Numbered from the stretch's first letter, positions 14,758-48,965 are shown. The stretch: 64,000 nucleotides of DNA from Candidatus Hopanoidivoransaceae bacterium (GCA_965204495.1 OZ241989.1:544312-608311); one strand, 5' to 3'. Numbers and translations are program-made. The notes: generated from the letters alone by a model not told the origin.

Positions 14758-15254
14758 CGCTTATCCAGCGTGTCGGCAGTGAAGAAAACTCTGTGCTGCC
14801 AGCACACATCCACAGCCTCCGAGCGGATACGCTTCCCGTATTCGCTGTCGGCGGTGTCAAGCGAAATAAGGATATCCTCAGATGCTTTCCTGTTCGCTAA
14901 ACCAGCAGGCATCAGGTAGTTGTCTCTGCTGCACAAACCGTGCACAACCGCAGCGATAGCAGCAGCATAATTCTCGTCGCAGTCTTCCGGCAGAGAACCC
15001 GACAACATAGAATCCCTCCTGTCAGGGAAATTGTTCCAATCAGCAACGAATTGCAGCAAAGGGCGAGTTTTCATCGCCTCGCCGCCGATTTCGTCAAAAG
15101 CCGCAGGCAGAGCACCTAACCCGATGACACCATTCCTCGATCGGGCATCTGAGCCCACACACACTTCTATACCGGTGTCGGTGCATCCACCAGTCGTGTC
15201 CGCAACATCAGACACATCGGGAAAAGTCCCATTCCTTGCTAGTATACCAACCAT
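14754..15254 (-). CDS. Hypothetical protein, translationally coupled partner of the NTase-like gene
   Basis: The ORF stop overlaps the downstream start. No motif is recognised. The true start may be the internal ATG that gives MKTRPLLQFVADW (~15071). Confidence 0.35.
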   Translation of the reverse strand: MVGILARNGTFPDVSDVADTTGGCTDTGIEVCVGSDARSRNGVIGLGALPAAFDEIGGEAMKTRPLLQFVADWNNFPDRRDSMLSGSLPEDCDENYAAAIAAVVHGLCSRDNYLMPAGLANRKASEDILISLDTADSEYGKRIRSEAVDVCWQHRVFFTADTLDKR

Positions 15255-16015
15255 AGCATGCAGTCTACACGCCCGGCTGTGGCGCCGACATAGGGCTGGT
15301 AGTTTCCGATGTATCGGAGGTATATGGATAGCTCTTCCAGTTTCGCTTGGAGGTCGAGGGGGCCTTGGTCGTTTATCTGGGAGTAGATGTTGATGTCCGC
15401 CAGACCCGGAACATAGCGGTCGCGTGGGGTACTGGCGGGCAGGGGCAGCTGTATGTCGTTGCGCTGTCGGGGGCGCAAACTAGAAGCTCGTGCGGGCGGG
15501 CGCAGAGAACCGCCGAGGTCGTCTGCGGAAGGAATAGTGGTTGTTGTCGTCGTCGTTGTCGTGTTTGTAGTGGTAGTGGAGGTTGTGGTTGTTGTCGTAG
15601 AGGAAGTGGTAGTGGTGGTTGTGGTCGTGCTAGTAGAAGCGGTCGCGGCAGTAGTGGTTGTGGTGGTGCTGCTCGGAGGTTCGGAAGTCTCTGGCGGCAA
15701 AGAACCCGAAGACGATGCCGAAGGCACAGCCTCAGTGGAACCAGAAGTTGGGGGAGCAGGCTCATCAGAACCCGCAGTCCCAACGCTCGGCACAGGCTCT
15801 GCCTGCCCAGTGTCAGGAGCGGCAGGTGCGGAAGTCGTTGTCGTGGTGGTCTCGGGCCGCGCAACGGTCTCGGTGGTCGCAACGCTCCCAACCGCAGCTT
15901 CAGTCGTAGCCGTCTCAGGGCTGCTGTCGCCGCCCGAAGAACAAGCCGAACCGACCAGCCCCAAAACAGCCGCAAAAGCAGCCGCAAAAACCCACTTTGC
16001 ATGTCTCATACCCAA
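15239..16015 (-). CDS. Thr-rich lipoprotein, apparently C-terminally truncated paralog of the 33460..35340 product
   Basis: The signal/lipobox is AAVLGLVGSAC. There is a poly-Thr tract. SLRPRQRNDIQLPLPASTPRDRYVPGLADINIY nearly matches GLRPRQRNDVQLPLPDSVPRDRYVPGLAAVNIY in the island lipoprotein. The ORF ends ~45 aa after the motif, whereas the paralog continues for ~290 aa. Confidence 0.6.
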   Translation of the reverse strand: MGMRHAKWVFAAAFAAVLGLVGSACSSGGDSSPETATTEAAVGSVATTETVARPETTTTTTSAPAAPDTGQAEPVPSVGTAGSDEPAPPTSGSTEAVPSASSSGSLPPETSEPPSSTTTTTTAATASTSTTTTTTTTSSTTTTTTSTTTTNTTTTTTTTTIPSADDLGGSLRPPARASSLRPRQRNDIQLPLPASTPRDRYVPGLADINIYSQINDQGPLDLQAKLEELSIYLRYIGNYQPYVGATAGRVDCMLWLVY

Positions 16016-29451: not shown

Positions 29452-29631
29452 GTTGCCTCCATTTCTCTCTGAAGTGCCAAAACTCATCCTTCAGTCACCA
29501 AACAATCGCCGCTTATGCACCATCGCAGGCACACCATCGCAGGCAACCATATAAAGTCGTTCTGGCCTTGATTAGAGGACGGAACAAGCCGACAACGAGG
29601 AAAACCCTCAAGCGCAAAGCGAAACCAGCCA

Positions 29632-30817: not shown

Positions 30818-31882
30818 CTACTTGAGCCTGGGCTGGAAATCTAGGTCTGGCCAGCGTTTGTAGCGGCTTGCTATGTAGTCGTCTACCCATTCTTTGGTGC
30901 TTAGCCATTGGCCTTCTGGAGTTTTGAGGGCGCGCAGTCTGCCTCTTTTGGCGGCTACTCGCAGAGCGTTGAATTTGATGTCTTTTCTTCTGAGCGAAGC
31001 TAGCGGGATCAGCTCGTCCTCGTCTGTGATGGCGGGGATGACGAATCTGTAGAGATTGTCCAGCACAGCTCTGGCTAGCAGCTCTCCCAGACTGCCGAAA
31101 TCGCCTTCGTCGGCCAGTCGCAAGGCTCGCAGATACCTGTCTCTGTTGCGGTTCAAAATGAGCGCAGGGGGATATCCCAGTCTCACCAGCACGAGATTCA
31201 GCAGAAGCCTGCCCGCACGACCGTTGCCGTCTGGGAAAGGATGTATCTGCTCAAACCTGCAGTGAATGCGAGCCAAGTCTTCTGGCAAATCAGGCGAAAG
31301 AGCTTGCAGGGCATTCACCTGCTTTAGCCAAGTGTCCATCTCGGCGTGAATGAGCGGCCAAGACACAGGGGTCATGCCCTCCAAGAATGTGGCAATATCA
31401 TGCTCGCGAAAACTTCCAGCAGCTTCTCTGCCCGACACCATTTTGTGCGGACGCTCCTCCCACACACGCGCCATCGCCAAGCGATGCACTTGGCGAACTT
31501 CTGTCATTGACACCAGTGCTTTGGTGATGTCGCCGCTGTCGGGATTGGTGCGTGCTTGATGATACACCCAGTCGGCAGCCTCGGCATAGCCCGTGACTTC
31601 CAAATACATCCAAAGAGGCTGCTCGCCCTTTGTCTTTCCTGTCCGCAGCAACTCCTCCACCATGCTCAAAGCCAAGGTGTTGCCCTCAATGGCTGTGGAG
31701 TTGTGAACCTCTAGATACCAGATGCCGTCCCATATCTCAGAAGCCTGCTCGGGGGCCGGAAGTCCGCCCAGACGCTGCCGCATAGCATCCACTTCGCTCG
31801 CCAACCGCTCATAGATGCTGTTGCGGGAAGGTCTGCCTCGCTGAATTTGTGCACTCACAGCAATTATTATTGCACAAAACAA
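30818..31882 (-). CDS. Fic family protein (second copy, class II)
   Basis: [16 protein letters not shown] is the Fic motif. NSTAIEGN fits the inhibitory (S/T)xxxE(G/N) motif. The N-terminal MFCAIIIAV may lie upstream of the true start. Confidence 0.85.
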
Positions 31883-32145
31883 ATTTGATTTCTCAGAAAT
31901 TGCTCAAATCAGCGTGCTCAGATTGGTAAATAGGGCTTATTCTTGGGAACTACATACAAAACTTGCGAAATCTGCTGAGTTCCCATTCAGGGCAAGGGCT
32001 CTAGCGGTTTTGCTGAGGCCTGGCTGTGCTGGGCCAGGTGGGGAGGAAATGTCCGCTGCGTGGATTGCGGCAGCGAGAAAACCGAAGCGAGCGACAGTCG
32101 TGCGGCTACCCGCATCGCCGCTGAATGGCTGCGCCTCCGCCGCAA

Positions 32146-32207
32146 GGAGCGGTATAGACTAGAAGCCGGCCAGCACCACTCCGCAACTCTGCACTCTAGG
32201 AAAGCCC
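32146..32207 (+). repeat. Copy A of a repeated noncoding motif (37-nt core at 32171-32207)
   Basis: The core cagcaccactccgcaactctgcactctaggaaagccc matches 33284-33320 at 32/37 positions. Weaker similarity extends upstream (gagcgg..tagact..agccg). Confidence 0.6.
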
Positions 32208-32375
32208 TACCGTTCGCTGGCGGAGAACACCCACTCACCGAAACTGACAGATGGCATGCGACTACAGGGATTCGCGTGGCTGCGTACCGTGGCTCCAACG
32301 AAACATCCTACCCCGTCGCTGTCTGCTGGGTGAAATGAGGCTGAATTGTGACCTGACGGCATCTGACCCAAAATG

Positions 32376-32405
32376 TTGACATCAGCCTCAAGATGCTGTT
32401 ATACT
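32376..32405 (+). promoter_or_regulatory. Near-consensus sigma-A-type promoter (TTGACA-N18-TATACT)
   Basis: TTGACA is at 32376-32381 and TATACT at 32400-32405. The promoter lies ~90 nt upstream of the 32498 ORF. Confidence 0.5.
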
Positions 32406-32497: not shown

Positions 32498-32857
32498 ATG
32501 GCAACCTTACTAGCGCAAACCGTCTCATCGGGAGAATGGGATGACGGATGGTGGATACTCATCGCAGGAGTATCCCTCGCAGTGATAGGCTGGTTGCTAC
32601 GGGTGATGTACAACGGGCTGAAAGAGACCATCCTCCAAACCAAGGAAGACTTGGAGAACCGCTGTAAGACTATAGAAACCAGCCTCTCTGAGTTGCGGAG
32701 CACGCTTTTTAAAGATGCTCTTGAACGCGCGAGACAGCAACCACAGTCACCCACGGGGACACATTCTGGTGACTCCCCTACGCCGACACCAGCAGCCTCG
32801 CAGGAGATCCCAGCAGGTGTGGGGTTCGCTACCGCATCAACGAAGAGAGATGAGTGA
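32498..32857 (+). CDS. Hypothetical single-pass membrane protein with a coiled-coil segment
   Basis: The TM is WWILIAGVSLAVIGWLL. It is followed by a heptad-like KETILQTKEDLENRCKTIETSLSELRSTLFKDALE and a Pro/Thr-rich tail. A promoter lies upstream. Confidence 0.45.
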   Translation: MATLLAQTVSSGEWDDGWWILIAGVSLAVIGWLLRVMYNGLKETILQTKEDLENRCKTIETSLSELRSTLFKDALERARQQPQSPTGTHSGDSPTPTPAASQEIPAGVGFATASTKRDE

Positions 32858-33283
32858 TTTCTGCCTGAAATCTCACCACCGCTAATGTTGGCTGTTCCAC
32901 CGGGCAAAGGACATTGACCGAATGAAAAGGCCGATGTGCCTATTAGCAGAGCAACACACCACCACTTCCCTGCCCAGAGCTACCAGGGCGAAGAGAAACC
33001 AAGAGGTCACCGTTGAGTATGTCCTCCTCACGCACAGATCGACACAAGCGACCTAGAACTCCTCGAGCACTACAAGCAGATATTCACTGTGGAGTCCAAA
33101 AAATCCGCCTTCTGACACCCAATCTCTGAAGCTTCAGCGAACATCGGCTGTTTCGACTGGCAACTCGGATGTGCCGCAGCCGAACAGCTCCGACAACGAG
33201 CGGCTGCCATGCTCTCTAGACTCTGGTCTTAGCCGCAAAGCCGCAGACGAGCCGCCAGGTGCGGCGCAGACCAGATACCGCGC

Positions 33284-33320
33284 CAGCATCACCCCGCAAC
33301 TCTACCCTCTAGGAAACCCC
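33284..33320 (+). repeat. Copy B of the repeated noncoding motif
   Basis: cagcatcaccccgcaactctaccctctaggaaacccc ends 140 nt upstream of the lipoprotein ATG at 33460. Confidence 0.6.
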
Positions 33321-33446
33321 TGTGAAATCAAGGTTTTTCATCGCTAAACCGCTGTCGGCGGCAGGAAATTGGGTTTGTCGTCAAATGGATGTGCGGGTTG
33401 TGCTATGGTTATATTCAGAATTTTTTACCGGCCTCCAAAAACAGCA

Positions 33447-33452
33447 TATAAT
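33447..33452 (+). promoter_or_regulatory. TATAAT box 7 nt upstream of the ATG, candidate leaderless transcript
   Basis: The sequence reads agcaTATAATatatactATG. The spacing would place the transcription start at or next to the start codon, which is common in Actinomycetota. Confidence 0.35.
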
Positions 33453-33459
33453 ATATACT

Positions 33460-35340
33460 ATGAAAACAAAATTTTACATAGCGATAGCGTTATCAGCTGT
33501 TTTGCTGGCAGCGTCGTGCTCTTCGGGCAGCGACAGCGAATCTGGCACATCAACATCCGCACCTGAAACTATTGCGGACACTGCGGCTGCTGTGCCGTCT
33601 GAAACTGTTACAACGACATCTGCGCCATCGGGCAATGTCGAAGAAGAAACTTCGCTAGTTGTGCCGTTCACAGCAGCCAACGGTTCTGGCACTGTTGCGG
33701 TTTTTGGTGATGGTTCGCCTTTGGTGGCTTGGTTTGGCGGTCTTCCTGGCGAGGTTTCGCTGGATTTGTTGGATGCGGATGTGGGCGATGCTGCGAGCGT
33801 GGTGGAAGAGCTTGTGAGTTTCTGGTTTTTCCAGGATGATGATAGCGGTGATGTGCCGCCGAGTATTTTCGAGTCTGCTAGCGGCGATATTAGCGATAGT
33901 GTTGGCACACGCTATGTTGTGGAAGCGCAAGGTTTGCCGCCAGCACCTGTGGCTGAGACGACAACTACAACTAGCAGCACAAGCACGACTTCGACTTCTT
34001 CTGTTCCTGAAACATCTGAACCTTCTAGCGCGGCGACATCTTCAACCACAACGACAACCTCATCTACGACAACCACGACAACGACTACTGTTGTTGAATC
34101 TCCTGCGGTTTTACAAGTTCAGGTGTTGAACGGAAGCGGTGTCGCTGGTGCTGCTGGAAGGATTACAGATAAGTTGTCAGAAGCAGGATATGTGGTTTTG
34201 TCGCCAGCGAACGCTCCGCAGAGATATAGTTCTTCGGCGGTGTATTTCGCTGAAGGCTGGCAGGATAAAGCTGAAGAGATACTGCAAGCAGCAGACATAG
34301 AAGAGATAGACGCTCCGACAGCTATGCCGCAGCAGTTCGCTACAGAAGAAGCAGCCGTTATAGTTTTGCTAGGAACAGATACCGCTCCTGCGGTTGCTAG
34401 AGAGCAAGCTGGTTTGCGGCCGAGACAGCGAAACGATGTGCAGCTTCCTCTGCCAGATAGTGTGCCCCGCGACAGGTATGTGCCAGGGTTGGCTGCTGTG
34501 AATATTTACACGCCGCAAACAGACAGCGACGAGTACACTTTCGCCCTGGCTCATACTCTCCAAGGATGGCTGCGATTTTTAGGAAACCATGCTCACAACT
34601 ACATTTTCGGTGTGATTCCAGAAGAACGCGGAACACGCGAGCAGGTGCTTCAAGCTTATGAAACGATAGAAGGTATCCTCTCCGATCTTGGTTTCACTCC
34701 GCAGAATGTGTGCGGAGCGCCAGCAGGTTATAGTTTTACTGATTTGCTGCAACCGACACGAGAGTGGGACGAAAGCTTGAAAACCTACAGTGGTGACGCT
34801 ATTTTCACTACTGATCGGCTGTTGGAGTTGCATGGCGGCGAGCGGATAAACCCTGAAGGCAATCTTGATTTCTATATTCGCCAAGCCGTGCAGACAGCGC
34901 ACGATGCTCTACGGCTTCCTGAGCTTTCGGCTGAGACTGAAGCTATGCAGCTTGTCTTGTGTGGGGCTTTCTTGACTCCTTCTGGCGAAGTGCCAGAAAT
35001 GGCTAACAGTTTATGGTACGCGAATCTCACACCTGGGATACAGCCGCGTGAAAGCCTGCTGTCGCAAGGCACATACCATCTCAAAGAAATATCGCGAAGC
35101 GGGAACATGGCTTATATTCTTGTTTGCCATCCGACGCTTGGATCTAGATATATTGATTTAGCTTGGCGAGACGGAGGGTATCGCGGTGAAGCTGTAGGAA
35201 ACCTATTGAACATAGGCTGTCAAGCTGACTTCGAAGACAGGGGGTATATCGCCGACTATGAACCTGAAGAAACAATCAAGTTCTCTTTCGGTGAGCGTGT
35301 TTTTTCTGTTGGAGACCTGCAAGGTTTTCCTAGAGGTTAA
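33460..35340 (+). CDS. Lipoprotein with poly-Thr linker, LytR_C-type domain and an unassigned ~290-aa C-terminal domain
   Basis: MKTKFYIAIALSAVLLAASC is a lipobox. VLQVQVLNGSGVAGAAGRITDKLSEAGYVVLSPANAPQRYSSSAVYF matches the LytR cell-envelope-related C-terminal domain pattern. The RPRQRNDVQLPLP..PRDRYVPGL motif is shared with 15239..16015. The longest ORF starts at 33322. Confidence 0.7.
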   Translation: MKTKFYIAIALSAVLLAASCSSGSDSESGTSTSAPETIADTAAAVPSETVTTTSAPSGNVEEETSLVVPFTAANGSGTVAVFGDGSPLVAWFGGLPGEVSLDLLDADVGDAASVVEELVSFWFFQDDDSGDVPPSIFESASGDISDSVGTRYVVEAQGLPPAPVAETTTTTSSTSTTSTSSVPETSEPSSAATSSTTTTTSSTTTTTTTTVVESPAVLQVQVLNGSGVAGAAGRITDKLSEAGYVVLSPANAPQRYSSSAVYFAEGWQDKAEEILQAADIEEIDAPTAMPQQFATEEAAVIVLLGTDTAPAVAREQAGLRPRQRNDVQLPLPDSVPRDRYVPGLAAVNIYTPQTDSDEYTFALAHTLQGWLRFLGNHAHNYIFGVIPEERGTREQVLQAYETIEGILSDLGFTPQNVCGAPAGYSFTDLLQPTREWDESLKTYSGDAIFTTDRLLELHGGERINPEGNLDFYIRQAVQTAHDALRLPELSAETEAMQLVLCGAFLTPSGEVPEMANSLWYANLTPGIQPRESLLSQGTYHLKEISRSGNMAYILVCHPTLGSRYIDLAWRDGGYRGEAVGNLLNIGCQADFEDRGYIADYEPEETIKFSFGERVFSVGDLQGFPRG

Positions 35341-35405
35341 AAAATTGGCGAAGAAATAGCCGTTTTGTAAATTGGGGCTGTTGGCGACATTAAACTAGCT
35401 AGGTT

Positions 35406-38400
35406 ATGGGGAAACCTTGCTTTTCTAAGCTAACTAAATTTTTCGCGTTTGCTTTGCTCGGCGTAGCGACAGCTATAGCAGCTGTCGTTGTGCTGTCATC
35501 GCCAGTCGCGGCAGACAGCCATACTCGCGGCGGCGGGGGTGGTTTCGATGATTATCCGTGGGATACGGATAATTTGCGCTATGGGAGCTATAACGCTAAG
35601 AGTTTCAATATCCCTTTCCATAAATATGGCGGCTATAGCGGTGTGGCTGCTTGTCAGTCGGGTGTGGCTGACGGGTTTTTCCAGACCGATAACAGCGTGG
35701 TTAACGATTTCCCGGTGCTCGTTTCGTCTGGTAGCGGGGACAGCATTACATGGAGCATAGCTGCGGGTTCGGCGGGCAATAACGCGGGCTGTGATACTTT
35801 TGTCGCCCAGCAGGACAAACTAGCAGCGCAGGTAGCTTCAGGTTTGACCTATGGTTTGTCTGAAGACGGCAAAGTTTATCCAGTCAGCGGGATTGAGTTC
35901 ACTACTGGGAGGTCTGTTTCGGATTTGAACTATGTTGCTTGGACTGCTAAAGCGTCTTCAGATTACACTATTGTGGGAAGCCACGGCGCGACTAGGGATA
36001 GCCGCTATCTGAGGCGAGTGGACGGACACTTGAATCGTTTGGCGATATCACCTCAGTCTGCAGGCAATACCATAACGGTGCCTTCGGGTGATTCTATTTC
36101 TCCGCCAACAGGAGATTTCGGGGCTTCATGGCACAGCAGCCGATCAAACCAATTGGTTGGCGGGGTTTACTACTACCGTTATAAAGCGGCTCTGTATCCT
36201 AGTCTGGCTCGGCATTTGACGAAAACCAAATCAGACGAATTGTGCCGCTACAGATTTCATCCCAGAGGGGAGGACTCTCACGAGAGGATAGGCCGCAGCA
36301 CCGGTAGGTCTCTCTCAAGTCTCAGCCACGCAGACGCTCAGATAGCGGACAGGTTCTGGTGTCGTTCGGATGTGCGCTATGAGCGCAGGTTCGCAGTAGA
36401 AGTTCACGATCTGCCCGACGGTATCATCGCATATGCTGGCGCGCCTGCTTCTGGCACATTCACCGCCTACGGCAGGCTGGGCTGCTATTACACATCCCAA
36501 GGGGCATCGCTAAGATCGGGATCAACGCTATCCCAATGCGGTTACAGGTTTCCTCTGCCGCAGTGTGATCCGAATCCTGGCAACGGCTCTGACAGCGATT
36601 GGCGGAATTACACCAACAGAGAAATACAATCCTCTGGGTTACACGGAAAGGTGTTCACCAAAGCAGACGGAGACTACTGCGCGCCTCAATGCACGCACAA
36701 CGGCAGCAAACGCGACATGACCAACGCGGAGATCAGTGAATACACAAAAGACGATCCGTTCTTCGCGCCGAACACTGACGGCACAACCCCATGCGTCAAA
36801 TCAGACGGCCCGCCGCAGCAGGCTGGTTTCACAGCAGACCCTTGCGTCACAGCAAGTCTGGTGATAGACGAGAACAGGATAGCCGGCAGCGCAGCAGAAC
36901 CTGGCGTGCCAGCTTCGGACAGGACGCTAGTCGCGGCTGCTGACAGAACAGCTTGGGATCTGGATATAACCTCTCCGCATCACAACACGGCAAGCCCGCC
37001 GAGGAATGTAGCAAGCACGCCAGCAGATGCGACTGGCTGCGCTGACGGCTCAGAGAGCAGAGCAGACCACAGCAGCGATGCTGGTTCTGCTGTTCGCAAA
37101 AACACAGCCGCAGGTGCTGACTTGGTTTTGCCTGTTTCTTCTGCCGCTGCCCAGAGCACGCATCCGCCGCACAGCAAAGGCTTCGACTCTGCCGGCACAG
37201 ACTACACAGGCGCGGTCAAAAATATCGCTCATCGCTATGCGAGTAATGTGGCGGAGAATACTTGTGCTGCTAAGCTGGCTGAGGCTGAGATGGTGCTTTC
37301 TGAGATGAAAGCTCGGCGTTTAGCTTTTCAGAGGTATATTGACAGCTATCAAAGCCGCATCGATGCTGCTCTATCAACCTCCGCCACAGCACCTTTGAGT
37401 TTCGGCAATTACTCGACGAACACGCAGCCCGGCTCGGATCTTGGGGTGGATGTTCTGCGCTACAACGCTATAGAAGCTAACCATTCGGCTTATGTGAACG
37501 CACGCAAAGACCATCTTGAGTTTTTAGAAACAGCAGTCGATAAAGCAGAAACCCAATACGGGACAGACACTAGCGGGCTGTCTGTGCCATCGGCGGTTCC
37601 GAATAACGGCTGTGTCGCCAGATACGACAGCGCAATAACCGCTCTTCGTGACAAGATAGACGACGCTGAAACCGATTTCGCTACCGTGGCTAGAACCGCA
37701 GGCAGGAAAAGCGTGTCTGGGCATCTCTCAGATTTCAAGGGTGTGAAATTAGCAAAGAATCCTGACGCAGCGAGAGTTGTTGTGCCGACTGTATCCAGAC
37801 CTGCTTATACATGGAATAACGGCAGCAGTTCTACAGCGTATTCATGTCCTAGCGGCGGAAGACTGAACAGCAACAAAAGCAAATGCACACCGTCAATATC
37901 ACAATCGCAAGCCGCTGCTGCCAGCACTAGTACGGTGACGACAACAGATCAAGAGTGTCTGGATAACCCGCCGGACGACCCTGAAAATCTATGGTTCTTA
38001 GCCTGCTATGGAACCGAGACTGTGACGACTTACAGTTGTCCGTCTCCAGCAGTACCAGCATGGACTCTAAGCGGAAGTTCTTGTTCCAGAATGGTTGACG
38101 GCACTCCTTACACATCTACTGTGACAGTCACTACTTCGCAGTCCTATTCTGTTACCGAAACAGGAACCGTGAAAGGCTATTTCCCGCCCGCAAATTCTTC
38201 GCCAGACAAATCTCAGACATTCACAGTGACTTTCACAGGAACGAGAACCAAAACCGTAGTCAACAGCGGAACGCCGACATATTCAAACAGAACCGACAGC
38301 AACAACTACGCAACCAAATCCAAAGAAGCCGAAAATATCGTCAAAGGATCGCCGCCGACAAGCCAATCCGCTCTGCCGGGTTTCGCCGAGCCGTCAATAA

Positions 38401-40616
38401 CGGCACACACCGACATATCGAACCTGTCGCTGCTAGGCAAATACCATCCGCAGCACACCGACAGAACCAACCTGAAAGCCGCATCCGCTTCCGACCGTAA
38501 CACAGCCGCCGCAAACCTAGGGTCGCTGTCGGCTGGCAACATCACCACAGCAGCAACCGGGGCGATAACGACACCGCAGAACATAGCCAACACAAATGTT
38601 CCGACAAGCTGGGGCGGAACCGGCACCACAGCCGCCAGCAGACGCTCAGACCTGCAAACAGAAACCAACGACTACAAAACCGCCTACACCAGAGCGTATA
38701 ACACCGCTTACAGAGCAGCTCTGTCGGACATGGGAACCACAGCCACAACAACCACATGGAACAACTTCGACTGGCGATACCAACAATCCACACTGGCATG
38801 GGGCAACTACCAAGAAGACCCAGCCACAACATACTCCGCTTCCACAGCCACGCCAAGAGACGGCACAGGCTGCGACCTTGTATCTGTTGCTTCTGACGGC
38901 ACGGTTTCTGTGGAAGCCACACGGCTGGACTACGAAACATCCAGCTACGGCAAAAGCTCCGTCTACAGCACACGAACAGACGCTCAGCGCACATGCAAAA
39001 TACGCAGAACACGCACACCAGAACTGATACTCAAATACCAGCCGTCTCGCCCATCAGGAACAGACACATCCAAAGCAGCGAGTTCCTTCTATGTCAACTA
39101 CCAGCCCCCAGTCGCCGCCGGACAACCTGCATCGGAGCGGTTCAAGCTCTACGACGAAGCAGAAGTATTCGCAGTCAAAACATCTCTAGCCGACAGCCCG
39201 CCAGTGCTGTGCTACCAGCCAGGCGAAGCACTAGTAGCGCATGTCGCAGCCAAAGGCATAGACGCTGTAAACAAAGCGGTATTCAGACACGCATCAGGAT
39301 TCGCAGGCGGCAACAAGAAGCACTGCTACAGGCATCCTTCATTGGCGCAGCTGGTGTCTAACGGAAAATCGCAGCCGGCGTTTGTGTTCTTTGACGACAC
39401 AGCACACTCGGCTATGGCTTCGGTGAATGTCGTGTGGCAGCAGCCGACACCGAAGATAGTGTCCAAGCTAGGATCGGCAGACGATCTGAAAATGATGGCG
39501 AACACCGTCGCTCTTGTCGCTAGCTCTCCTGTGGCTTATGCGGATGCGACACGAACTTCCAGCTTCTACGGCACCTACTACACATTCCCCACAGACAACA
39601 GCGTGAAGTCTCCTAGCGGATGGGACATCACAGGACACCCCAGCTTGACGCTCGCATCAACATTCGAACAGCATCAAGTGCAAGCCAAAGACACAGCCGC
39701 CAAAACACCGACAACACACACGATGGTGTTCAAATTCATAGACTGCGTGTTCGGAATAGAAGATGTCGCATTCGTAGACAACATCGCAAGCCCCTACGCG
39801 CTGCTGTCTGATGAGAACGGAGTAGTGCCGTCTGGATGGAAGCAAACCTATGACAGAGACCCGCACAACAGCCCCACATGGTACTATCCTGCGTTCTCCA
39901 CCTATGAAGGCGCGCTGCGGCTGGACGGCAGACGAGACAGCAACGGCGACCCTATAACCTACGGGCGCAACACCCAGGGCGGATTCGCTCATCCGTCATA
40001 TGCTTTGGAGAACACCGCATCAGACGGAATAGGCTGGGGCGTCGTCTATGAAGACAAAGTAGGCAAACAACAGCCAGTCTGGGCGATACACGCACCGCCA
40101 GTGCCAGGCGACAACACATTGACAGCTATAGAGGTTTGTGGAGTGAATAATCTAGGTGCAGGCGGCAGGAATCCGATGCCAACAGCAACCAGACGAATCG
40201 GCACCCCAGCGACACCGCCGCCAGCTTCTGGGGTGTGGTCATGGAAAGCGTCAGGCTGGGATTATCACGATAATCCTGTCATGCTGTGGAGCGTAGATGA
40301 CGACCCTGACAGAGAAGACAAATGGGAGACAAGAACATCAGACTCTTCTGCGAAACTGCCGCGCAAACCTCACTGCAATATGGATTACGCCACAGAAGAA
40401 TCCAATGTCGCCGAACTGGATGTGTTCACAGACCCTGACAATGCCGCTCCAGCAGGTCAATCGCGATTAGAAGACCAAGACATGGTGCTTGCTAACTTCC
40501 AGCCTCTAGCAGTCAGCAAATCCGCCAGAGCCCAACTGAGTGGTTATTCACTTCTGGCGCGATCCCAGTCTTTCGTCGTGCCCGCGCGCCCTTCTTCTTC
40601 TACCTTGACGCCCTAG
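35406..40616 (+). CDS. Giant (1,736 aa) secreted or cell-surface protein with no recognisable domain
   Basis: It is an uninterrupted 5.2-kb ORF. The N-terminal signal/anchor is FFAFALLGVATAIAAVVVLSSPVAAD. I count about 28 Cys, several of them in close pairs. One coiled-coil-like stretch is present. I could see no internal tandem repeats and no sortase signal. Confidence 0.75.
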   Translation: MGKPCFSKLTKFFAFALLGVATAIAAVVVLSSPVAADSHTRGGGGGFDDYPWDTDNLRYGSYNAKSFNIPFHKYGGYSGVAACQSGVADGFFQTDNSVVNDFPVLVSSGSGDSITWSIAAGSAGNNAGCDTFVAQQDKLAAQVASGLTYGLSEDGKVYPVSGIEFTTGRSVSDLNYVAWTAKASSDYTIVGSHGATRDSRYLRRVDGHLNRLAISPQSAGNTITVPSGDSISPPTGDFGASWHSSRSNQLVGGVYYYRYKAALYPSLARHLTKTKSDELCRYRFHPRGEDSHERIGRSTGRSLSSLSHADAQIADRFWCRSDVRYERRFAVEVHDLPDGIIAYAGAPASGTFTAYGRLGCYYTSQGASLRSGSTLSQCGYRFPLPQCDPNPGNGSDSDWRNYTNREIQSSGLHGKVFTKADGDYCAPQCTHNGSKRDMTNAEISEYTKDDPFFAPNTDGTTPCVKSDGPPQQAGFTADPCVTASLVIDENRIAGSAAEPGVPASDRTLVAAADRTAWDLDITSPHHNTASPPRNVASTPADATGCADGSESRADHSSDAGSAVRKNTAAGADLVLPVSSAAAQSTHPPHSKGFDSAGTDYTGAVKNIAHRYASNVAENTCAAKLAEAEMVLSEMKARRLAFQRYIDSYQSRIDAALSTSATAPLSFGNYSTNTQPGSDLGVDVLRYNAIEANHSAYVNARKDHLEFLETAVDKAETQYGTDTSGLSVPSAVPNNGCVARYDSAITALRDKIDDAETDFATVARTAGRKSVSGHLSDFKGVKLAKNPDAARVVVPTVSRPAYTWNNGSSSTAYSCPSGGRLNSNKSKCTPSISQSQAAAASTSTVTTTDQECLDNPPDDPENLWFLACYGTETVTTYSCPSPAVPAWTLSGSSCSRMVDGTPYTSTVTVTTSQSYSVTETGTVKGYFPPANSSPDKSQTFTVTFTGTRTKTVVNSGTPTYSNRTDSNNYATKSKEAENIVKGSPPTSQSALPGFAEPSITAHTDISNLSLLGKYHPQHTDRTNLKAASASDRNTAAANLGSLSAGNITTAATGAITTPQNIANTNVPTSWGGTGTTAASRRSDLQTETNDYKTAYTRAYNTAYRAALSDMGTTATTTTWNNFDWRYQQSTLAWGNYQEDPATTYSASTATPRDGTGCDLVSVASDGTVSVEATRLDYETSSYGKSSVYSTRTDAQRTCKIRRTRTPELILKYQPSRPSGTDTSKAASSFYVNYQPPVAAGQPASERFKLYDEAEVFAVKTSLADSPPVLCYQPGEALVAHVAAKGIDAVNKAVFRHASGFAGGNKKHCYRHPSLAQLVSNGKSQPAFVFFDDTAHSAMASVNVVWQQPTPKIVSKLGSADDLKMMANTVALVASSPVAYADATRTSSFYGTYYTFPTDNSVKSPSGWDITGHPSLTLASTFEQHQVQAKDTAAKTPTTHTMVFKFIDCVFGIEDVAFVDNIASPYALLSDENGVVPSGWKQTYDRDPHNSPTWYYPAFSTYEGALRLDGRRDSNGDPITYGRNTQGGFAHPSYALENTASDGIGWGVVYEDKVGKQQPVWAIHAPPVPGDNTLTAIEVCGVNNLGAGGRNPMPTATRRIGTPATPPPASGVWSWKASGWDYHDNPVMLWSVDDDPDREDKWETRTSDSSAKLPRKPHCNMDYATEESNVAELDVFTDPDNAAPAGQSRLEDQDMVLANFQPLAVSKSARAQLSGYSLLARSQSFVVPARPSSSTLTP

Positions 40617-41345
40617 ACCAAGATATGACCATCACCGAATTCTTAGAAGAGTTCGATGGAACAACCAAGGAGCACATAGACACTTTTTGGGAACTCTCAC
40701 TGGCTAGCACACAAACCTAGCCAGCAATGAGCGAGAGACTGACCGGGGCCGTGTCTCCGCCCGCTCCTACCACCGCGCTGTCTCCTCCCCACCCAACTGG
40801 AAAAGATACCCAAGAATGGTTGCCTCGTTTGCAACAACTGCTGCTATAGTGAATTCACATGAGGGCAGCATCAGCCACTTTCAATCGTGAGACAGGCCAA
40901 TTCGCCCACGTAGTGGATGGGAACAGCACTTTTGCGATGTCTCAAAGAGCAGCGAGGTCTATGCAAACCAGCTCAGGCCATAAGCGCGGCGCGGCTGATA
41001 TTTCTGATAGGATTGTCGGCATGTTGAAGCTAGACAAGATAACGGCTCTTCACGAGCCGCCGACCAACCGACGCCGCCTCTTCCACCTGCCCCTGAGGAT
41101 GCCGAGCCTCAAGGCCAGTACACTGGCTGCTTGGACCTCATCCGCAGTGGCGATGATCCAAAGGGAGGCATACCCACAGCACCAGTTGACGGTTGAGCTT
41201 GATAAGCCCTTTAGCCAGAGAGCAAACCCGTCCAACCCCTGATCCAGCCGTAGTCCCTTCCACTGAAGGAGGAGCAGAAGAAATTCCTCTGAGCAACAAC
41301 ATATCCAATTATTATAACAACCACACAAAAAGGAGATAAACCCAA

Positions 41346-41993
41346 ATGAGTGCAAACATATGGATAGACACACACCACAACAACCTACATGCTTCGAACA
41401 AGCTTCTCTCCGAAGTCTTAGAAGAGAGAAGGGAGGATGCCCAAAAGAGCGTTTTGGCAATTCCTGAAAAGGATTTCCTAAAGCAAAATAATAGTGAGAT
41501 TGAAAAACCTCTCACTTGTCAGTTCACCATAGGTCTAGTAACTTTTGAAGACCCAAAAATAAAGAGACCTGAACCAGAAGGTGGAAATTATGTGATCCAT
41601 CAAACAATCCCCTTCAAAGGCGACCCGGTTTTACTTGAGTACTCGCCGTTTGCAACTGGCCCCATACCGCCAATTGCTTCTACTAAGAAGCAGACTCCCG
41701 CTAGAGGACCAATTGGCAAAATAATAAAATTAAAAAACAGCAGTAACTGCAGAGAAATTGAGGTGAAGCTGGTATTCAAAGGCGATATCATGAATGAAGA
41801 GAACACTCCTCAAAATATAAAAAAAATACTCAAAAACAACTATATAGAAATTATGGAATGGACTGATTCTGCTAACCAGGATGCCGCACAATTCAACAAA
41901 CACTTACCATATTACATTTCAGTATCTATTCAAGACAGGAGGAATAGCTTGCAGATGATCGAAAATGTTTGTAAGCAGATCCAAGACAAGTAG
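41346..41993 (+). CDS. Hypothetical protein on an AT-rich segment
   Basis: It is a 215-aa ORF preceded by AAAAGGAGATAAACCCAA-ATG. It is Lys/Asn/Ile-rich, and the AT-rich composition begins at ~41280. No motif is recognised. Confidence 0.5.
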   Translation: MSANIWIDTHHNNLHASNKLLSEVLEERREDAQKSVLAIPEKDFLKQNNSEIEKPLTCQFTIGLVTFEDPKIKRPEPEGGNYVIHQTIPFKGDPVLLEYSPFATGPIPPIASTKKQTPARGPIGKIIKLKNSSNCREIEVKLVFKGDIMNEENTPQNIKKILKNNYIEIMEWTDSANQDAAQFNKHLPYYISVSIQDRRNSLQMIENVCKQIQDK

Positions 41994-46424: not shown

Positions 46425-46490
46425 AATCTATGCAGCCGCCAGAAACCCAGCCACAACACACACGATGGTGTTCAAATTCGTAGACAACTA
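46425..46490 (+). pseudogene. Relic of a diverged homolog of the giant-protein gene
   Basis: 46431-46487 translates in frame as YAAARNPATTHTMVFKFVDN*. The giant ORF at ~39682-39741 reads DTAAKTP-TTHTMVFKFIDC. The 29-nt stretch acaacacacacgatggtgttcaaattc..tagac is almost identical. The flanks differ by an in-frame 3-nt indel and by conservative changes. Confidence 0.6.
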
Positions 46491-48282: not shown

Positions 48283-48326
48283 CTCGCTGTCTGCTCTTTC
48301 AGACTGGCGGCTCAGACTGCTACGGC

Positions 48327-48965
48327 TCAGCTTGACAGATCTGCGTCAGCCTGCTGCTCGGCCGCCCTTGCCAGAGCTGCGCTCTCTCGTGCTATTACGA
48401 AGTCGAGAGAGTCAGCAGTCACCCCGCTGGCGCCCACAAGTTTCTCAACCACCACACCCGATGGGGAGACCACATAAGTTTCCGGCAGGGCTGTGACGCT
48501 GTAATCCACCGCGATCCTGCCGGTGTCGTCGCGATTCTCCCCATAGATCACAGGCCAGTCGGCATCGCCCATCACCGACTGCAGCACCCGCTCGCGTGTG
48601 TCGTTGAAAACGACCGTGACAACGATGGCATCCCCTCTCTGGTGTCTCTGATTGAACTCCTCCAGCTCGGGATACTCCTCAATGCACCCCACGCACCAAG
48701 AAGCAAAGAAATTCACAACCATCCATTTGCCGAGATGATGGTCGGAGTTGAAAGTGCCGCCGTCTATCGTTTCGCCTTCAATGAGCGGAGCGGGCTGGCC
48801 AACGATTCCTCGTCCGACTAGAAAACTCTGCTGCGAGTCGCGCGTCGCTAGCAAAAACACGAACAAGCCGACCACAGCCGCAACGAGCAAACTCGTGATT
48901 ACCACAACCCATTTGGTTGAGACTTGACGCTGCGCGATGCTTTGCGCAACTTCTTCTTCTGTCAC
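48327..48965 (-). CDS. ccmG: Thiol:disulfide oxidoreductase CcmG/DsbE (TlpA-like thioredoxin)
   Basis: There is an N-terminal TM anchor. NFFASWCVGCIEEYPEL contains the CxxC thioredoxin motif. The gene lies between ccmF and ccmH. Confidence 0.8.
   Translation of the reverse strand: MTEEEVAQSIAQRQVSTKWVVVITSLLVAAVVGLFVFLLATRDSQQSFLVGRGIVGQPAPLIEGETIDGGTFNSDHHLGKWMVVNFFASWCVGCIEEYPELEEFNQRHQRGDAIVVTVVFNDTRERVLQSVMGDADWPVIYGENRDDTGRIAVDYSVTALPETYVVSPSGVVVEKLVGASGVTADSLDFVIARESAALARAAEQQADADLSS

What the first reader, a model, noticed from the sequence alone, without database searches (positions are those of the whole stretch)
33460..40616. Orphan surface module: a LytR_C-domain lipoprotein followed by a 1,736-aa cysteine-containing secreted giant with no recognisable domain
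The first gene encodes a lipoprotein (MKTKFYIAIALSAVLLAASC) with an acidic N-domain and a poly-Thr linker. It has a LytR_C-type domain (VLQVQVLNGSGVAGAAGRITDKLSEAGYVV..AVYF) and a ~290-aa C-terminal region I cannot assign.

The second gene starts 66 nt later as an uninterrupted 5.2-kb ORF. Its product has a signal/anchor sequence and about 28 Cys by my count. Several Cys are in close pairs, e.g. YSCPSGGRLNSNKSKC and YSCPSPAVPAWTLSGSSC. One coiled-coil-like stretch is present (AKLAEAEMVLSEMKARRLAFQRYIDSYQSRID).

Unlike most bacterial giant proteins, I could not find tandem Ig/cadherin/RTX/RHS-type repeats. There is no LPXTG/LAXTG sorting signal and no obvious toxin tip. LytR_C domains are normally attached to LCP wall-teichoic/arabinogalactan ligases, so a stand-alone LytR_C lipoprotein paired with a giant exoprotein is an unusual architecture. 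It could be an anchoring or assembly partner.
Basis: partly seen in the sequence, partly recalled or inferred. Interest (0 to 1): 0.7.

Follow-up and report, generated by a model that had tools for sequence, protein, structure and literature searches.

The report
Multicopy lipoprotein–giant exoprotein surface cassette
The two genes are real and have no known relatives, but they are one of at least seven recombining copies per genome of a cassette (wall-associated lipoprotein plus large secreted cysteine-rich protein) found only in a narrow group of uncultured Acidimicrobiales, most likely a variable cell-surface module of unknown biochemical function.

Summary
A lipoprotein (33460-35340, LytR_C domain) is followed after 65 nt by a 1,736-aa secreted protein (35406-40616) with 28 Cys, no repeats, no sorting signal, and no match by Pfam, NCBIfam, PHROGs, PADLOC, PDB sequence profiles, an exhaustive HMM scan of 1.84 billion proteins, or Foldseek.

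"Orphan" is wrong in one sense: this is a two-gene cassette family. About 570 lipoprotein and 105-162 giant homologs exist, nearly all in metagenome assemblies, and the only named genome is an uncultured Acidimicrobiales MAG. There are at least 7 lipoprotein paralogs per 2.1-2.6 Mb genome. A giant followed the lipoprotein in every distinct locus inspected except L003.

The giant has a moderately conserved N-module, a hypervariable core (aa ~640-1000) and a strongly conserved C-module and tail. dS varies more than 50-fold along one pairwise comparison. A 6.45-kb block is 99.8% identical in an unrelated context, so cassettes recombine segmentally. Conserved parts are under purifying selection (dN/dS 0.15-0.3).

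Cassettes sit in defence/TA islands and are flanked by cassette debris. The best reading is a lineage-specific variable envelope module; the biochemical function is unknown. A stand-alone LytR_C domain is not unusual (VirR, Cei).

The parts
33320..33459 (+). Conserved cassette leader with a promoter-like site (TTTACC-17 nt-TATAAT, 33424-33452) ending about 9 nt before the ATG, so the transcript is probably leaderless. Its left edge is the left boundary of cassette homology.
   Evidence: It is 96% identical in L001 and 90% in L060/L061, where the lipoprotein is only 60% identical. The promoter scan found the site at 10/12 matches. The 99.8% block shared with L001 starts at 33318. A ~70-nt piece is repeated in L061 (3 copies), and the adjacent 71 nt (33251-33321) recur at 32139-32208.
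33460..35340 (+). Lipoprotein gene (626 aa). Signal plus lipobox aa 1-20; conserved acidic N-domain aa ~60-170; poly-Thr/Ser linker aa ~171-217; LytR_C aa 218-307 (34111-34380); unassigned C-domain aa 310-626 with four invariant Cys.
   Evidence: dN/dS against L063 is 0.17. About 570 homologs at 49-100% identity. The AlphaFold model of the C-domain is poor (pLDDT 57) and has no Foldseek hit at E<=0.001.
34492..34659 (+). Lipoprotein hypervariable patch 1 (aa 345-400).
   Evidence: Mean pairwise p-distance is 0.65, against 0.15-0.22 for flanking segments. The truncated paralog at 15239-16015 breaks off in this patch.
35122..35289 (+). Lipoprotein hypervariable patch 2 (aa 555-610).
   Evidence: Mean p-distance 0.44. 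dN is 0.37 against L063, while patch 1 is identical in that pair.
35406..40616 (+). Giant secreted protein gene (1,736 aa), co-oriented and 65 nt downstream, with no promoter-like or terminator-like site in the gap.
   Evidence: 105 homologs. Only 162 hits among 1.84 billion representative proteins.
35643..36815 (+). Giant N-module, globular alpha/beta domain (aa ~80-470), with invariant Cys and motifs such as FHPRGED and FWCRSDxRYxRxF.
   Evidence: Alignment A4 invariant columns. AlphaFold pLDDT is mostly 75-94 in this part. No PDB or BFVD fold match at E<=0.001.
36816..37205 (+). Giant aa ~471-600: highly conserved in sequence but predicted with low confidence.
   Evidence: Many invariant columns. 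pLDDT is 28-45.
37206..37682 (+).
   Evidence: AlphaFold helices at tile residues 572-627, 652-693 and 707-730. Only weak, non-specific helical-bundle Foldseek hits.
37323..38405 (+). Hypervariable core (aa ~640-1000), rich in indels but with a conserved Cys scaffold (C736, C814, C827, C878).
   Evidence: Identity to the window residue is 0.26-0.42 and occupancy drops to 0.3. Mean p-distance 0.70. dS is above 1 or saturated and dN is 0.49-0.89 against L063. Cys conservation.
38763..39725 (+). Strongly conserved C-module (aa ~1120-1440).
   Evidence: 70-89% identity across the family. dN/dS 0.26-0.31. No PDB sequence match.
39726..40613 (+). Canonical C-terminal tail (aa 1441-1736), starting at the motif HTMVFKF(I/V)DCVFGIEDVAFVDNIASPYALLS.
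   Evidence: Present in about half of the members, and full-length in P0013, P0016 and P0227. Absent from the L001 copy, whose homology ends at 39770.
39694..39743 (+). Left copy of a ~50-nt direct repeat inside the giant gene.
   Evidence: the repeat finder D3 and alignment A1.
46433..46485 (+). Right copy of the repeat. It reads AAARNPATTHTMVFKFVDN* and is an orphaned giant 3' end next to CcmH. Together the two copies bracket the giant's tail plus a low-GC defence segment.
   Evidence: GC is 0.42-0.49 between the copies. The segment holds GmrSD/HEC-06 and a PDC-S54-like gene.
32194..32243 (-). Decayed, inverted remnant of a lipoprotein 3' end (SFGEWVFSASER*GFPR).
   Evidence: Inverted repeat I2, 50 nt at 72% with 35286-35335. 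By my own estimate about 5e-4 such pairs would be expected by chance in the 16-kb region. Translation.
15239..16015 (-). Truncated lipoprotein paralog elsewhere in the window (lipobox, poly-Thr linker, start of the C-domain, then a break), next to a DUF6036 nucleotidyltransferase pair.
   Evidence: tblastn 57% to the query and 92% to P0278. Translation. Neighbours.
32498..32857 (+). Small single-TM protein ORF (119 aa), a possible occasional accessory gene.
   Evidence: 70% aa and 76.5% nt identity to an ORF immediately next to the L003 lipoprotein, in inverted orientation. Absent from the other loci.

Best explanation
This is one copy of a lineage-specific, multicopy two-gene envelope cassette of uncultured Acidimicrobiales.

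Shown: a near-consensus promoter-like site lies in a conserved leader. It precedes a lipoprotein gene followed, with no terminator-like site in between, by a Sec-signal-bearing 1,200-1,800-aa protein built on about 20 invariant cysteines. The lipoprotein and the giant's N- and C-modules are under purifying selection. The giant's central ~360 aa and two patches of the lipoprotein are hypervariable. Cassettes are dispersed around the chromosome, often in defence/TA islands. They exchange segments by homologous recombination so thoroughly that adjacent segments have nearly independent histories.

Inferred: the lipoprotein is tethered to the membrane by its lipid, crosses the wall zone with its probably glycosylated poly-Thr linker, and uses LytR_C to engage the wall-assembly zone, as VirR and Cei do. 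Its C-domain, or its conserved N-domain, would then hold or help fold the disulfide-rich giant. The giant would be displayed non-covalently with its conserved ends inward and its hypervariable core exposed. Carrying several differently shuffled copies would diversify the exposed surface against phages, grazers or a host. This parallels the recombining giant-protein and S-layer islands of aquatic prokaryotes and the multigene surface-variation families of pathogens. The conserved cassette ends also provide repeated homology at which flexible (defence) DNA is inserted or swapped.
For: Gene structure and secretion signals. LytR_C. LytR_C-solo proteins act at nascent wall through protein-protein contacts: PMC11832169. 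Operon layout. Pair conservation: window, L001, L002, L060/L061, L062 (same locus as L065), L063 and L064, plus at least 57 of 86 contig co-occurrences. Multicopy: at least 7 lipoprotein clusters attributed to the 2.62-Mb contig and 6-7 to two other megabase contigs. Conserved-variable-conserved layout. Invariant Cys scaffold, which fits an oxidising extracytoplasmic location. Purifying selection in the conserved parts. Recombination: dS runs 0.03, 0.12, 0.59, saturated, 0.27 along a single pair; a 6,453-nt block is 99.83% identical in an unrelated context; segment distances among 38 cassettes have rho <= 0.34; paralogs are DNA mosaics. Island context and cassette debris. Concept of recombining giant-protein islands tied to phage pressure: PMC4033161 and PMC3698932.
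Against: There is no direct evidence of surface location, expression, or contact between the two proteins. The lipoprotein patches do not co-vary with the giant's core (rho about 0). They co-vary only weakly with its N-module (0.22-0.25), so cognate specificity is unproven. No known wall-binding or display domain occurs in the giant. The AlphaFold models are only moderate (67.7) and poor (57.4), so 'novel fold' is not established. About 15% of public homologs are frameshifted, so some copies may be decaying. dN/dS in the core could not be measured properly because dS is saturated. Proximity to defence genes may simply reflect shared residence in flexible islands.
Confidence: 0.5

Rival explanations
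1. Secreted enzyme or substrate-capture protein with a private lipoprotein foldase. The giant's N-module is a catalytic or binding domain acting on an extracellular polymer. The lipoprotein is a dedicated membrane-tethered chaperone (in the manner of PrsA or lipase-specific foldases, from my own knowledge) that folds the disulfide-rich product. Multiple copies would give different substrate specificities, loosely like SusC/SusD pairs.
For: The N-module has invariant charged and His motifs (FHPRGED, WCRSDxR, AHRYA) that could form an active site. The gene pairing is strictly 1:1. Weak co-variation of lipoprotein patch 1 with the giant's N-module, rho 0.22-0.25.
Against: No enzyme family or fold is detected by any method. 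No transporters, glycosidases or regulators are consistently linked to the cassettes; the flanks are unrelated housekeeping or defence genes. The most variable part is a central, indel-rich region rather than a defined binding pocket.
Confidence: 0.17
2. Envelope-level anti-phage or exclusion factor. The cassette is itself a defence module: a surface shield or receptor mask that blocks adsorption or DNA entry. That would explain why it sits among defence genes.
For: Cassettes lie in or next to defence/TA clusters. In the window: SoFic-type Fic, GmrSD/HEC-06 and a PDC-S54-like gene. In L060/L061: AbiU2, Schlafen/AlbA, ThsB-TIR, a methyltransferase and ApeA. In L062-L064: Fic, DUF2442/DUF4160, NTP_transf_2 and SocA. 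Hypervariability fits an arms race.
Against: No PADLOC model matches either protein. Several cassettes are flanked mainly by housekeeping genes. Cassette debris and 50-nt repeats suggest that defence DNA is inserted into or beside cassettes, not that it functions with them. This rival overlaps the best explanation, since surface variation against phages is part of it.
Confidence: 0.12
3. S-layer-type lattice protein with its anchor. The giants are alternative S-layer subunits, and the lipoprotein ties the lattice to the wall.
For: The giant is a large, acidic (pI 5.9), Ser/Thr/Ala-rich secreted protein. Multiple variant copies are known for S-layer genes in other bacteria (my own knowledge). 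S-layer clusters are among the recombining surface islands described in PMC4033161.
Against: No SLH or other S-layer anchoring domain is found. The giant has 28 Cys, about 20 of them invariant, whereas S-layer proteins are typically Cys-poor (my own knowledge). Each copy has its own promoter-like leader rather than forming a silent-cassette system.
Confidence: 0.08
4. Polymorphic toxin or contact-dependent competition system. The giant delivers a C-terminal toxin, and downstream small ORFs are immunity genes.
For: It is a large secreted protein. Recurrent alternative C-termini and an orphan 3' fragment downstream (46433-46490) at first resembled CdiA/Rhs orphan modules. Small unannotated ORFs follow the giant (40859-41242, 41346-41993).
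Against: The C-module and tail are the most conserved parts of the family, and the variable part is central. The alternative ends are truncations, locus-specific junctions or frameshifts, not swapped domains. No toxin, Rhs/YD, filamentous-haemagglutinin or pre-toxin domain is found. The downstream small ORFs are not conserved at other cassettes.
Confidence: 0.04
5. Non-functional or selfish DNA. The long ORFs are decaying relics, or cargo of an unrecognised mobile element, with no cellular role.
For: About 15 of 105 homologs are frameshifted, many fragments occur in the databases, and truncated copies are common. A near-identical block occurs in different genomic contexts.
Against: dN/dS is 0.15-0.31 in the conserved modules, and the Cys and other motifs are invariant over 35-99% identity. 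No integrase or transposase sits with the cassettes. The family is absent from viral contigs, phages and plasmids. The window copy is intact.
Confidence: 0.04

Closest known systems
LytR_C 'solo' envelope proteins of Mycobacterium tuberculosis (VirR/Rv0431, Cei/Rv2700)
   Same: Membrane-tethered, non-catalytic proteins with a Pro/Thr-rich linker and a LytR_C domain and no LCP ligase domain. Pfam LytR_C matches above threshold. The PDB profile hit is to Rv0431 (2m5y, E 5.9e-6). There is a weak partial hit to the Cei model. In M. tuberculosis the domain mediates protein-protein contacts at sites of new wall (PMC11832169).
   Different: Here the anchor is a lipobox rather than a TM helix. The protein has an extra conserved acidic N-domain and a ~316-aa C-domain with hypervariable patches. 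It is multicopy and always paired with a giant gene. The Cei model scores 24 bits against a cutoff of 150, so it is not a Cei orthologue.
Giant-protein and other 'replacement' flexible genomic islands of aquatic prokaryotes (Alteromonas, Vibrio; PMC4033161, PMC3698932)
   Same: Large exposed proteins whose genes are exchanged by homologous recombination. Near-identical versions occur in different genomic backgrounds, divergence peaks in a variable internal region, and the proposed driver is phage pressure. Compare.
   Different: Those giants are single-copy, repeat-rich (VBCS/Ig-like) and 5,000+ aa, and they sit at one fixed locus. Here there are at least 7 dispersed copies per small genome, no repeats, a Cys scaffold, an obligate lipoprotein partner, and the same cassette type at different loci.
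Multigene surface-variation families that diversify by segmental recombination (e.g. Campylobacter fetus sap S-layer genes, Neisseria pilE/pilS, Borrelia vls; from my own knowledge)
   Same: Several paralogs have conserved ends and a variable interior. Segment shuffling between copies gives mosaic genes. The 5' leader is conserved.
   Different: There is no evidence of one expression site with silent donors, because each copy carries its own promoter-like leader, signal peptide and partner gene. No invertase or dedicated recombinase is present. The organism appears to be an environmental, not pathogenic, actinobacterium.
Polymorphic toxin systems (CdiA, Rhs, with orphan C-terminal modules)
   Same: A large secreted protein with a displaced 3' gene fragment downstream, sharing a short conserved junction sequence.
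   Different: The C-terminus is conserved, not polymorphic. There are no toxin or immunity pairs and no repeats. The fragment is debris from recombination or insertion.

Membership tests
LytR_C domain (Pfam PF13399) | Profile match above the curated gathering score | tested here: met
   47.1 bits against a cutoff of 22.2, E 4.6e-12, aa 218-307, covering profile positions 2-85 of 86. The PDB profile search hits the LytR_C protein Rv0431, 2m5y.
LCP (LytR-CpsA-Psr) glycopolymer ligases | Catalytic LCP domain N-terminal to LytR_C | tested here: not met
   No LCP-domain hit at E<=1 in Pfam or NCBIfam. The region N-terminal to LytR_C is a ~110-aa acidic domain plus a poly-Thr linker.
Cei (envelope integrity protein, NCBIfam NF035953) | Equivalog score at or above 150 bits | tested here: not met
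   24 bits, covering only aa 177-251.
Bacterial lipoproteins | Signal peptide ending in a lipobox [LVI][ASTVI][GAS]C | tested here: met
   MKTKFYIAIALSAVLLAAS|C read directly. The Cys and lipobox are conserved in full-length homologs. No dedicated predictor was available.
Sortase-anchored surface proteins | C-terminal LPXTG/LAXTG motif followed by a hydrophobic segment and a charged tail | tested here: not met
   No L[PA]xT[GAS] motif anywhere, and no hydrophobic window above 1.6 after aa 60.
Repeat-type giant adhesins (Ig-like, cadherin, RTX, VBCS, Rhs/YD) | Tandem domain repeats detectable by profile or self-comparison | tested here: not met
   No Pfam repeat family. No self-BLAST hit at E<=10.
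Polymorphic toxins (CdiA/Rhs-like) | Conserved body with a hypervariable C-terminal toxin domain and an adjacent immunity gene | tested here: not met
   The C-module and tail are 70-89% conserved and the variable region is central. No toxin domain. The downstream ORFs are not conserved at other cassettes.
S-layer proteins | SLH or another S-layer anchoring domain, and lattice formation | tested here: not met
   No SLH or other S-layer domain hit. 28 Cys is atypical for this class (typical Cys content is from my own knowledge). Lattice formation cannot be tested with these tools.
Known anti-phage defence systems (PADLOC-DB v2) | Match to a defence protein model | tested here: not met
   No hit for the lipoprotein or the giant at E<=0.01. 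The neighbours Fic, GmrSD and ORF 41346-41993 do hit.
Phage or plasmid genes | Relatives on viral contigs, phage genomes or plasmids | tested here: not met
   No relatives in IMG/VR, INPHARED phages (N-module query only) or PLSDB plasmids (C-module and tail query only). No PHROG hit.
Replacement flexible genomic islands (giant-protein type) | Near-identical version in divergent genomic backgrounds, exchanged by homologous recombination at conserved borders | tested here: inconclusive
   A 99.83% block of 6,453 nt is shared with L001 and has sharp borders, and dS is mosaic. However, the two copies sit at different loci, and the core-genome divergence of the two hosts could not be measured.
Replacement flexible genomic islands (giant-protein type) | Same chromosomal position in all strains, carrying different versions | not testable with these tools
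   The source genome and its close relatives could not be retrieved around the ComM-CcmH position.

The most novel reading that the evidence does not exclude
A previously undescribed surface-variation system of small-genome, uncultured environmental Actinobacteria. It would consist of at least 7 dispersed, independently promoted lipoprotein-plus-giant cassettes built from new protein folds. The cassettes continually reshuffle segments among themselves and between strains. Their conserved ends would double as recombination landing pads that seed or move defence islands, giving a combined 'variable coat plus flexible-island scaffold' that takes up about 2% of the genome.
Probability: 0.3. Interest if true: 0.75.

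Novelty: new variant of a known kind. Interest (0 to 1): 0.55.

Why it matters
If the reading is right, a small-genome, uncultured Acidimicrobiales lineage spends about 2% of its DNA on a private family of secreted proteins that no current domain or structure library recognises. It diversifies them with a recombination regime usually discussed for pathogens' antigen families or for single-copy giant-protein islands.

That would give three things. First, a tractable case, since many long-read MAGs already exist, for measuring how surface variation and defence-island turnover are coupled in free-living bacteria. Second, a new role for LytR_C-solo proteins as partners of specific exoproteins. Third, two or three new protein domains worth solving.

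Practically, the family should be given profile models. Annotators should note that the giant's start codon is often called 79 codons too late, which hides the signal peptide.

Tried and rejected
1. 'Conserved junction plus swappable toxin tip'. This was suggested by the homology break at 39770 and the repeated THTMVFKF motif. I rejected it because the sequence after the motif is conserved in most members, and short forms are truncations, locus junctions or frameshifts.

2. Phage or plasmid origin. No relatives in IMG/VR, INPHARED, PLSDB or PHROGs.

3. Known defence system. No PADLOC hit.

4. Fold recognition. The AlphaFold model of the giant N-tile (pLDDT 67.7) and of the lipoprotein C-domain (pLDDT 57.4) gave no Foldseek hit at E<=0.001 in PDB, and the giant N-tile model gave none in BFVD (the lipoprotein model was not searched there). 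The best hits were generic helical bundles or small beta-sheets.

5. PDB sequence profiles for the N-tile, the full-length family and the C-tile gave nothing.

6. Distant family members were scanned for informative extra domains. None was found.

7. Retrieving other loci of the source genome and the same chromosomal position in relatives failed. The NCBI genome is not in the gene-position index, and the ComM protein had no exact match.

8. The first genome scan found nothing. Both JGI metagenome scans found nothing.

9. The co-variation test for cognate lipoprotein-giant matching was essentially negative or inconclusive.

10. Literature search for the source assemblies gave no paper.

11. Rfam and tRNA scans of the window found nothing relevant.
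Full report
**1. What is there.**
ORF listing and translation confirm a 626-aa lipoprotein gene at 33460-35340 and an uninterrupted 1,736-aa ORF at 35406-40616 on the same strand, 65 nt apart. The lipoprotein has these parts:
- a lipobox (LLAAS|C)
- a conserved acidic N-domain
- a poly-Thr/Ser linker
- a LytR_C domain (PF13399, aa 218-307, E 4.6e-12, above the curated cutoff)
- a ~316-aa C-terminal region with no family assignment

The giant has one N-terminal hydrophobic signal segment and 28 Cys. It has no later hydrophobic segment, no sortase motif, no HExxH and no internal repeat. Pfam, NCBIfam, PHROGs and PADLOC give nothing for it.

**2. Setting in the window.**
The pair lies in a 17-kb island between a ComM-like gene (27940-29487) and a System I cytochrome c maturation cluster (CcmH 46510-48282, a thioredoxin-like gene, CcmF). 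rpsB, an M23 peptidase and DprA lie further upstream. The island contains, in order:
- three small ORFs
- a SoFic-type Fic gene (30818-31882, minus strand)
- a small single-TM ORF (32498-32857)
- the cassette
- two small ORFs, one resembling the PADLOC candidate PDC-S54
- a GmrSD/HEC-06 type IV restriction gene (43272-45128, minus strand)
- three small minus-strand ORFs

GC falls from about 0.57 to 0.42-0.49 over 40-46 kb.

Cassette debris marks both sides. An inverted, decayed lipoprotein 3' end lies at 32194-32243. An orphaned giant 3' end at 46433-46490 reads ...THTMVFKFVDN*. It forms a ~50-nt direct repeat with 39694-39743 inside the intact giant. A truncated lipoprotein paralog lies 18 kb away at 15239-16015, next to a DUF6036 nucleotidyltransferase pair.

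**3. It is a family, not an orphan.**
The giant has 105 homologs at 35-99% identity. The lipoprotein has about 570 hits at E<=0.001, and the 191 listed full-length relatives are 49-100% identical. Almost all come from ENA metagenome assemblies. An exhaustive HMMER scan of 1.84 billion representative proteins with a family profile found only 162 hits, many of them fragments. Distant full-length members carry no Pfam domain either.

Among GTDB species representatives, only one genome encodes the lipoprotein beyond its LytR_C domain: an uncultured Acidimicrobiales MAG chromosome, OY282367.1. The family is absent from viral contigs, phage genomes and plasmids.

Several homologs report the same megabase contig. 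At least 7 lipoprotein clusters are attributed to the 2.62-Mb NCBI contig, which also holds proteins identical to the window's (P0106, P0227). Two other 2.1-2.6-Mb contigs carry 6-7 each. Seven cassettes of about 7.3 kb equal about 2% of such a genome.

**4. The pairing is conserved.**

| Locus | Arrangement |
|---|---|
| L001 | lipoprotein then giant, in a different neighbourhood from the window |
| L060/L061 | lipoprotein then giant, inside a defence island |
| L062 (same locus as L065) | lipoprotein then giant, between housekeeping genes |
| L063 | lipoprotein then giant |
| L064 | lipoprotein, two inserted small genes, then giant |
| L002 (distant MAG) | two tandem lipoproteins (58-60% identical) then a 787-aa homolog of the giant's N-module (34%) |
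| L003 | lipoprotein alone |

At least 57 of 86 giants on contigs of 12 kb or more share a contig with one of the 191 listed lipoprotein homologs. This is a lower bound. There is no promoter-like or terminator-like site in the 65-nt gap.

A promoter-like site, TTTACC-17-TATAAT, ends about 9 nt before the lipoprotein ATG. That leader (33320-33459) is 90-96% identical between cassettes whose lipoproteins are only 60% identical.

**5. Architecture and variability.**
The lipoprotein is highly conserved, with mean p-distance 0.15-0.22. The exceptions are two patches: aa 345-400 (0.65) and aa 555-610 (0.44).

| Giant region (aa) | Character | Evidence |
|---|---|---|
| ~80-470 | globular alpha/beta N-domain; pLDDT mostly 75-94; ten invariant Cys; motifs such as FHPRGED and FWCRSDxRYxRxF | |
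| ~471-600 | very conserved in sequence, but low model confidence | |
| ~601-759 | three long helices | |
| ~640-1000 | hypervariable, indel-rich core that keeps a Cys scaffold (overlaps the last two helices) | |
| ~1120-1440 | strongly conserved C-module (70-89% identity) | |
| 1441-1736 | conserved tail | |

The window's 292-aa tail is the canonical full-length form. Many shorter homologs are truncations at locus-specific junctions. L001's '...EDVATAADIAAALAKG' ending is one example: it abuts a convergent thioesterase gene and recurs in the divergent giants P0038 and P0055. Other short forms are frameshifts, since about 15 of 105 C-termini are alternative-frame translations of giant-gene sequence. 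This removed my early idea of swappable toxin tips.

**6. Selection and recombination.**
Against L063, the lipoprotein has dN/dS 0.17. The giant's conserved parts have dN/dS 0.15-0.31, so both are functional genes.

In that same pairwise comparison the giant's dS changes sharply along the gene:

| Giant residues | dS |
|---|---|
| 80-280 | 0.03 |
| 280-470 | 0.12 |
| 470-640 | 0.59 |
| 640-1120 | >1 or saturated |
| 1120-1480 | 0.27-0.29 |

A single divergence time cannot produce such a mosaic. The lipoprotein shows a similar step.

A 6,453-nt block (33318-39770) is 99.83% identical to L001, where it sits between entirely different genes. The 11 differences comprise 5 clustered in the leader, 6 in the giant (5 of them nonsynonymous) and none in the lipoprotein.

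Across 38 cassettes, distances in different segments are almost uncorrelated, with rho <= 0.34 between lipoprotein and giant segments and 0-0.5 within the lipoprotein. Paralogs within one genome are DNA mosaics of 84-91% blocks and 70-76% blocks.

**7. Structure and remote homology.**
The AlphaFold model of giant aa 30-760, built from a 78-sequence alignment, reached pLDDT 67.7. Foldseek gave no match at E<=0.001 against PDB or BFVD, only weak helical-bundle hits. The lipoprotein C-domain model was poor (pLDDT 57.4) and also unmatched against PDB. Profile searches of PDB sequences found only the LytR_C protein Rv0431. 'No recognisable domain' therefore stands. 'Novel fold' is plausible for the N-domain but not proven.

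**8. Interpretation.**
What is shown:
- It is a secreted, disulfide-scaffolded protein with a lipoprotein partner carrying a wall-zone domain.
- The family is multicopy.
- The layout is conserved-variable-conserved.
- Segmental recombination is pervasive.
- The conserved parts are under purifying selection.
- The cassettes reside in flexible or defence islands.

The most economical reading is a lineage-specific variable cell-envelope module. LytR_C-solo proteins (VirR, Cei) act at nascent wall through protein-protein contacts (PMC11832169). So the lipoprotein is plausibly the wall-zone tether or folding partner of the giant. This step is inferred, not shown, and the co-variation test gave no real support.

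The nearest conceptual relatives are the recombining giant-protein and S-layer 'replacement' islands of aquatic prokaryotes, which are thought to be driven by phage pressure (PMC4033161, PMC3698932). Multigene surface-variation families are a second comparator. This system differs from both. It is multicopy and dispersed, repeat-free and Cys-rich, obligately paired with a lipoprotein, and independently promoted.

The 50-nt repeat bracketing the giant's tail plus the low-GC defence genes is one sign of how flexible DNA enters at these sites. The truncated lipoprotein next to a TA-like pair, and the two-gene insertion in L064, are others. Together they suggest that the conserved cassette sequences also act as homology sites where flexible DNA is inserted. 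This is an inference from three loci.

**9. Rivals.**
- Private foldase plus secreted enzyme cannot be excluded. There are invariant charged motifs, but no enzyme signal and no linked catabolic genes.
- A direct anti-phage role overlaps the main reading and has no PADLOC support.
- An S-layer is unlikely, given the many Cys and the lack of an anchoring domain.
- A polymorphic toxin is largely refuted.
- Non-functional DNA is contradicted by the purifying selection.

**10. Verdict.**
It is also less singular than claimed, since it is not an orphan and stand-alone LytR_C is ordinary. Function remains unknown at the biochemical level. I rate it a new variant of a known kind (variable surface-protein systems), built from an uncharacterised protein family.

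Noticed in passing
window 15239-16015 (-), with 14754-15254 and 14215-14757: A truncated lipoprotein paralog (lipobox, long poly-Thr linker, start of the C-domain, no LytR_C). It breaks off inside hypervariable patch 1 and abuts a two-gene unit that includes a DUF6036 nucleotidyltransferase. This looks like a second example of flexible or TA-type DNA replacing part of a cassette.
   Followed up: partly
window 39694-39743 and 46433-46485: A ~50-nt direct repeat (about 88-92% identical) brackets 6.7 kb holding the giant's tail and low-GC defence genes (a PDC-S54-like ORF, GmrSD/HEC-06). The right copy is an orphaned giant 3' end (…THTMVFKFVDN*) directly next to CcmH. This is compatible with a recombination-mediated insertion that used giant-gene homology. 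No integrase is present.
   Followed up: partly
window 32139-32243 (-) and 33251-33321: An inverted, decayed copy of the lipoprotein C-terminus (SFGEWVFSASER*GFPR) lies 1.2 kb upstream of the intact gene. A 71-nt direct repeat of the sequence just left of the cassette boundary is also present. These look like remnants of an earlier, oppositely oriented cassette now occupied by Fic and small ORFs.
   Followed up: partly
window 32498-32857 (+): A 119-aa single-TM protein with a coiled-coil-like tail and its own strong promoter-like site (32376-32405, 11/12 matches). A 70% identical ORF sits immediately next to the solo lipoprotein in the distant L003 locus, in inverted orientation. It is absent from the other cassettes.
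   Followed up: partly
L064 5933-9004 and L002 4907-6346: Domain-less ~480-500-aa proteins lie directly upstream of the lipoprotein in two loci (a tandem pair in L064; 27% identity between genomes, E about 1e-40). They are absent from the window and may be an optional third cassette component.
   Followed up: no
window 46510-51094 (-): System I cytochrome c maturation genes (CcmH with TPR repeats, a thioredoxin-like gene, CcmF) in what appears to be an actinobacterium. From my own knowledge, System II is the usual actinobacterial pathway, so this is worth a note for the lineage's physiology.
   Followed up: no
window 35406-35645: Public gene calls (NCBI P0227 and several ENA homologs) start the giant at codon 80 (GTG), which removes the signal peptide. 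Residues 1-79 are conserved among paralogs, so the family is probably being mis-annotated systematically as non-secreted.
   Followed up: yes
window 33331-33350: Five of the 11 differences between the window and the 99.83% identical L001 block cluster within 20 nt of the conserved leader, just inside the left homology boundary. This resembles the SNP peaks described at borders of recombined islands.
   Followed up: no
public homologs P0010, P0020, P0043, P0056, P0061, P0062, P0065, P0069, P0092, P0105 and others: About 15 of 105 giant homologs end in alternative-frame translations of giant-gene sequence, meaning frameshifted genes. I could not tell whether these are real pseudogenes or long-read assembly errors.
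   Followed up: partly
window 1025-2233 (+), match at 1649-1822: A second Fic-like sequence in the window (40% identity over 58 aa to the island's Fic protein).
   Followed up: no
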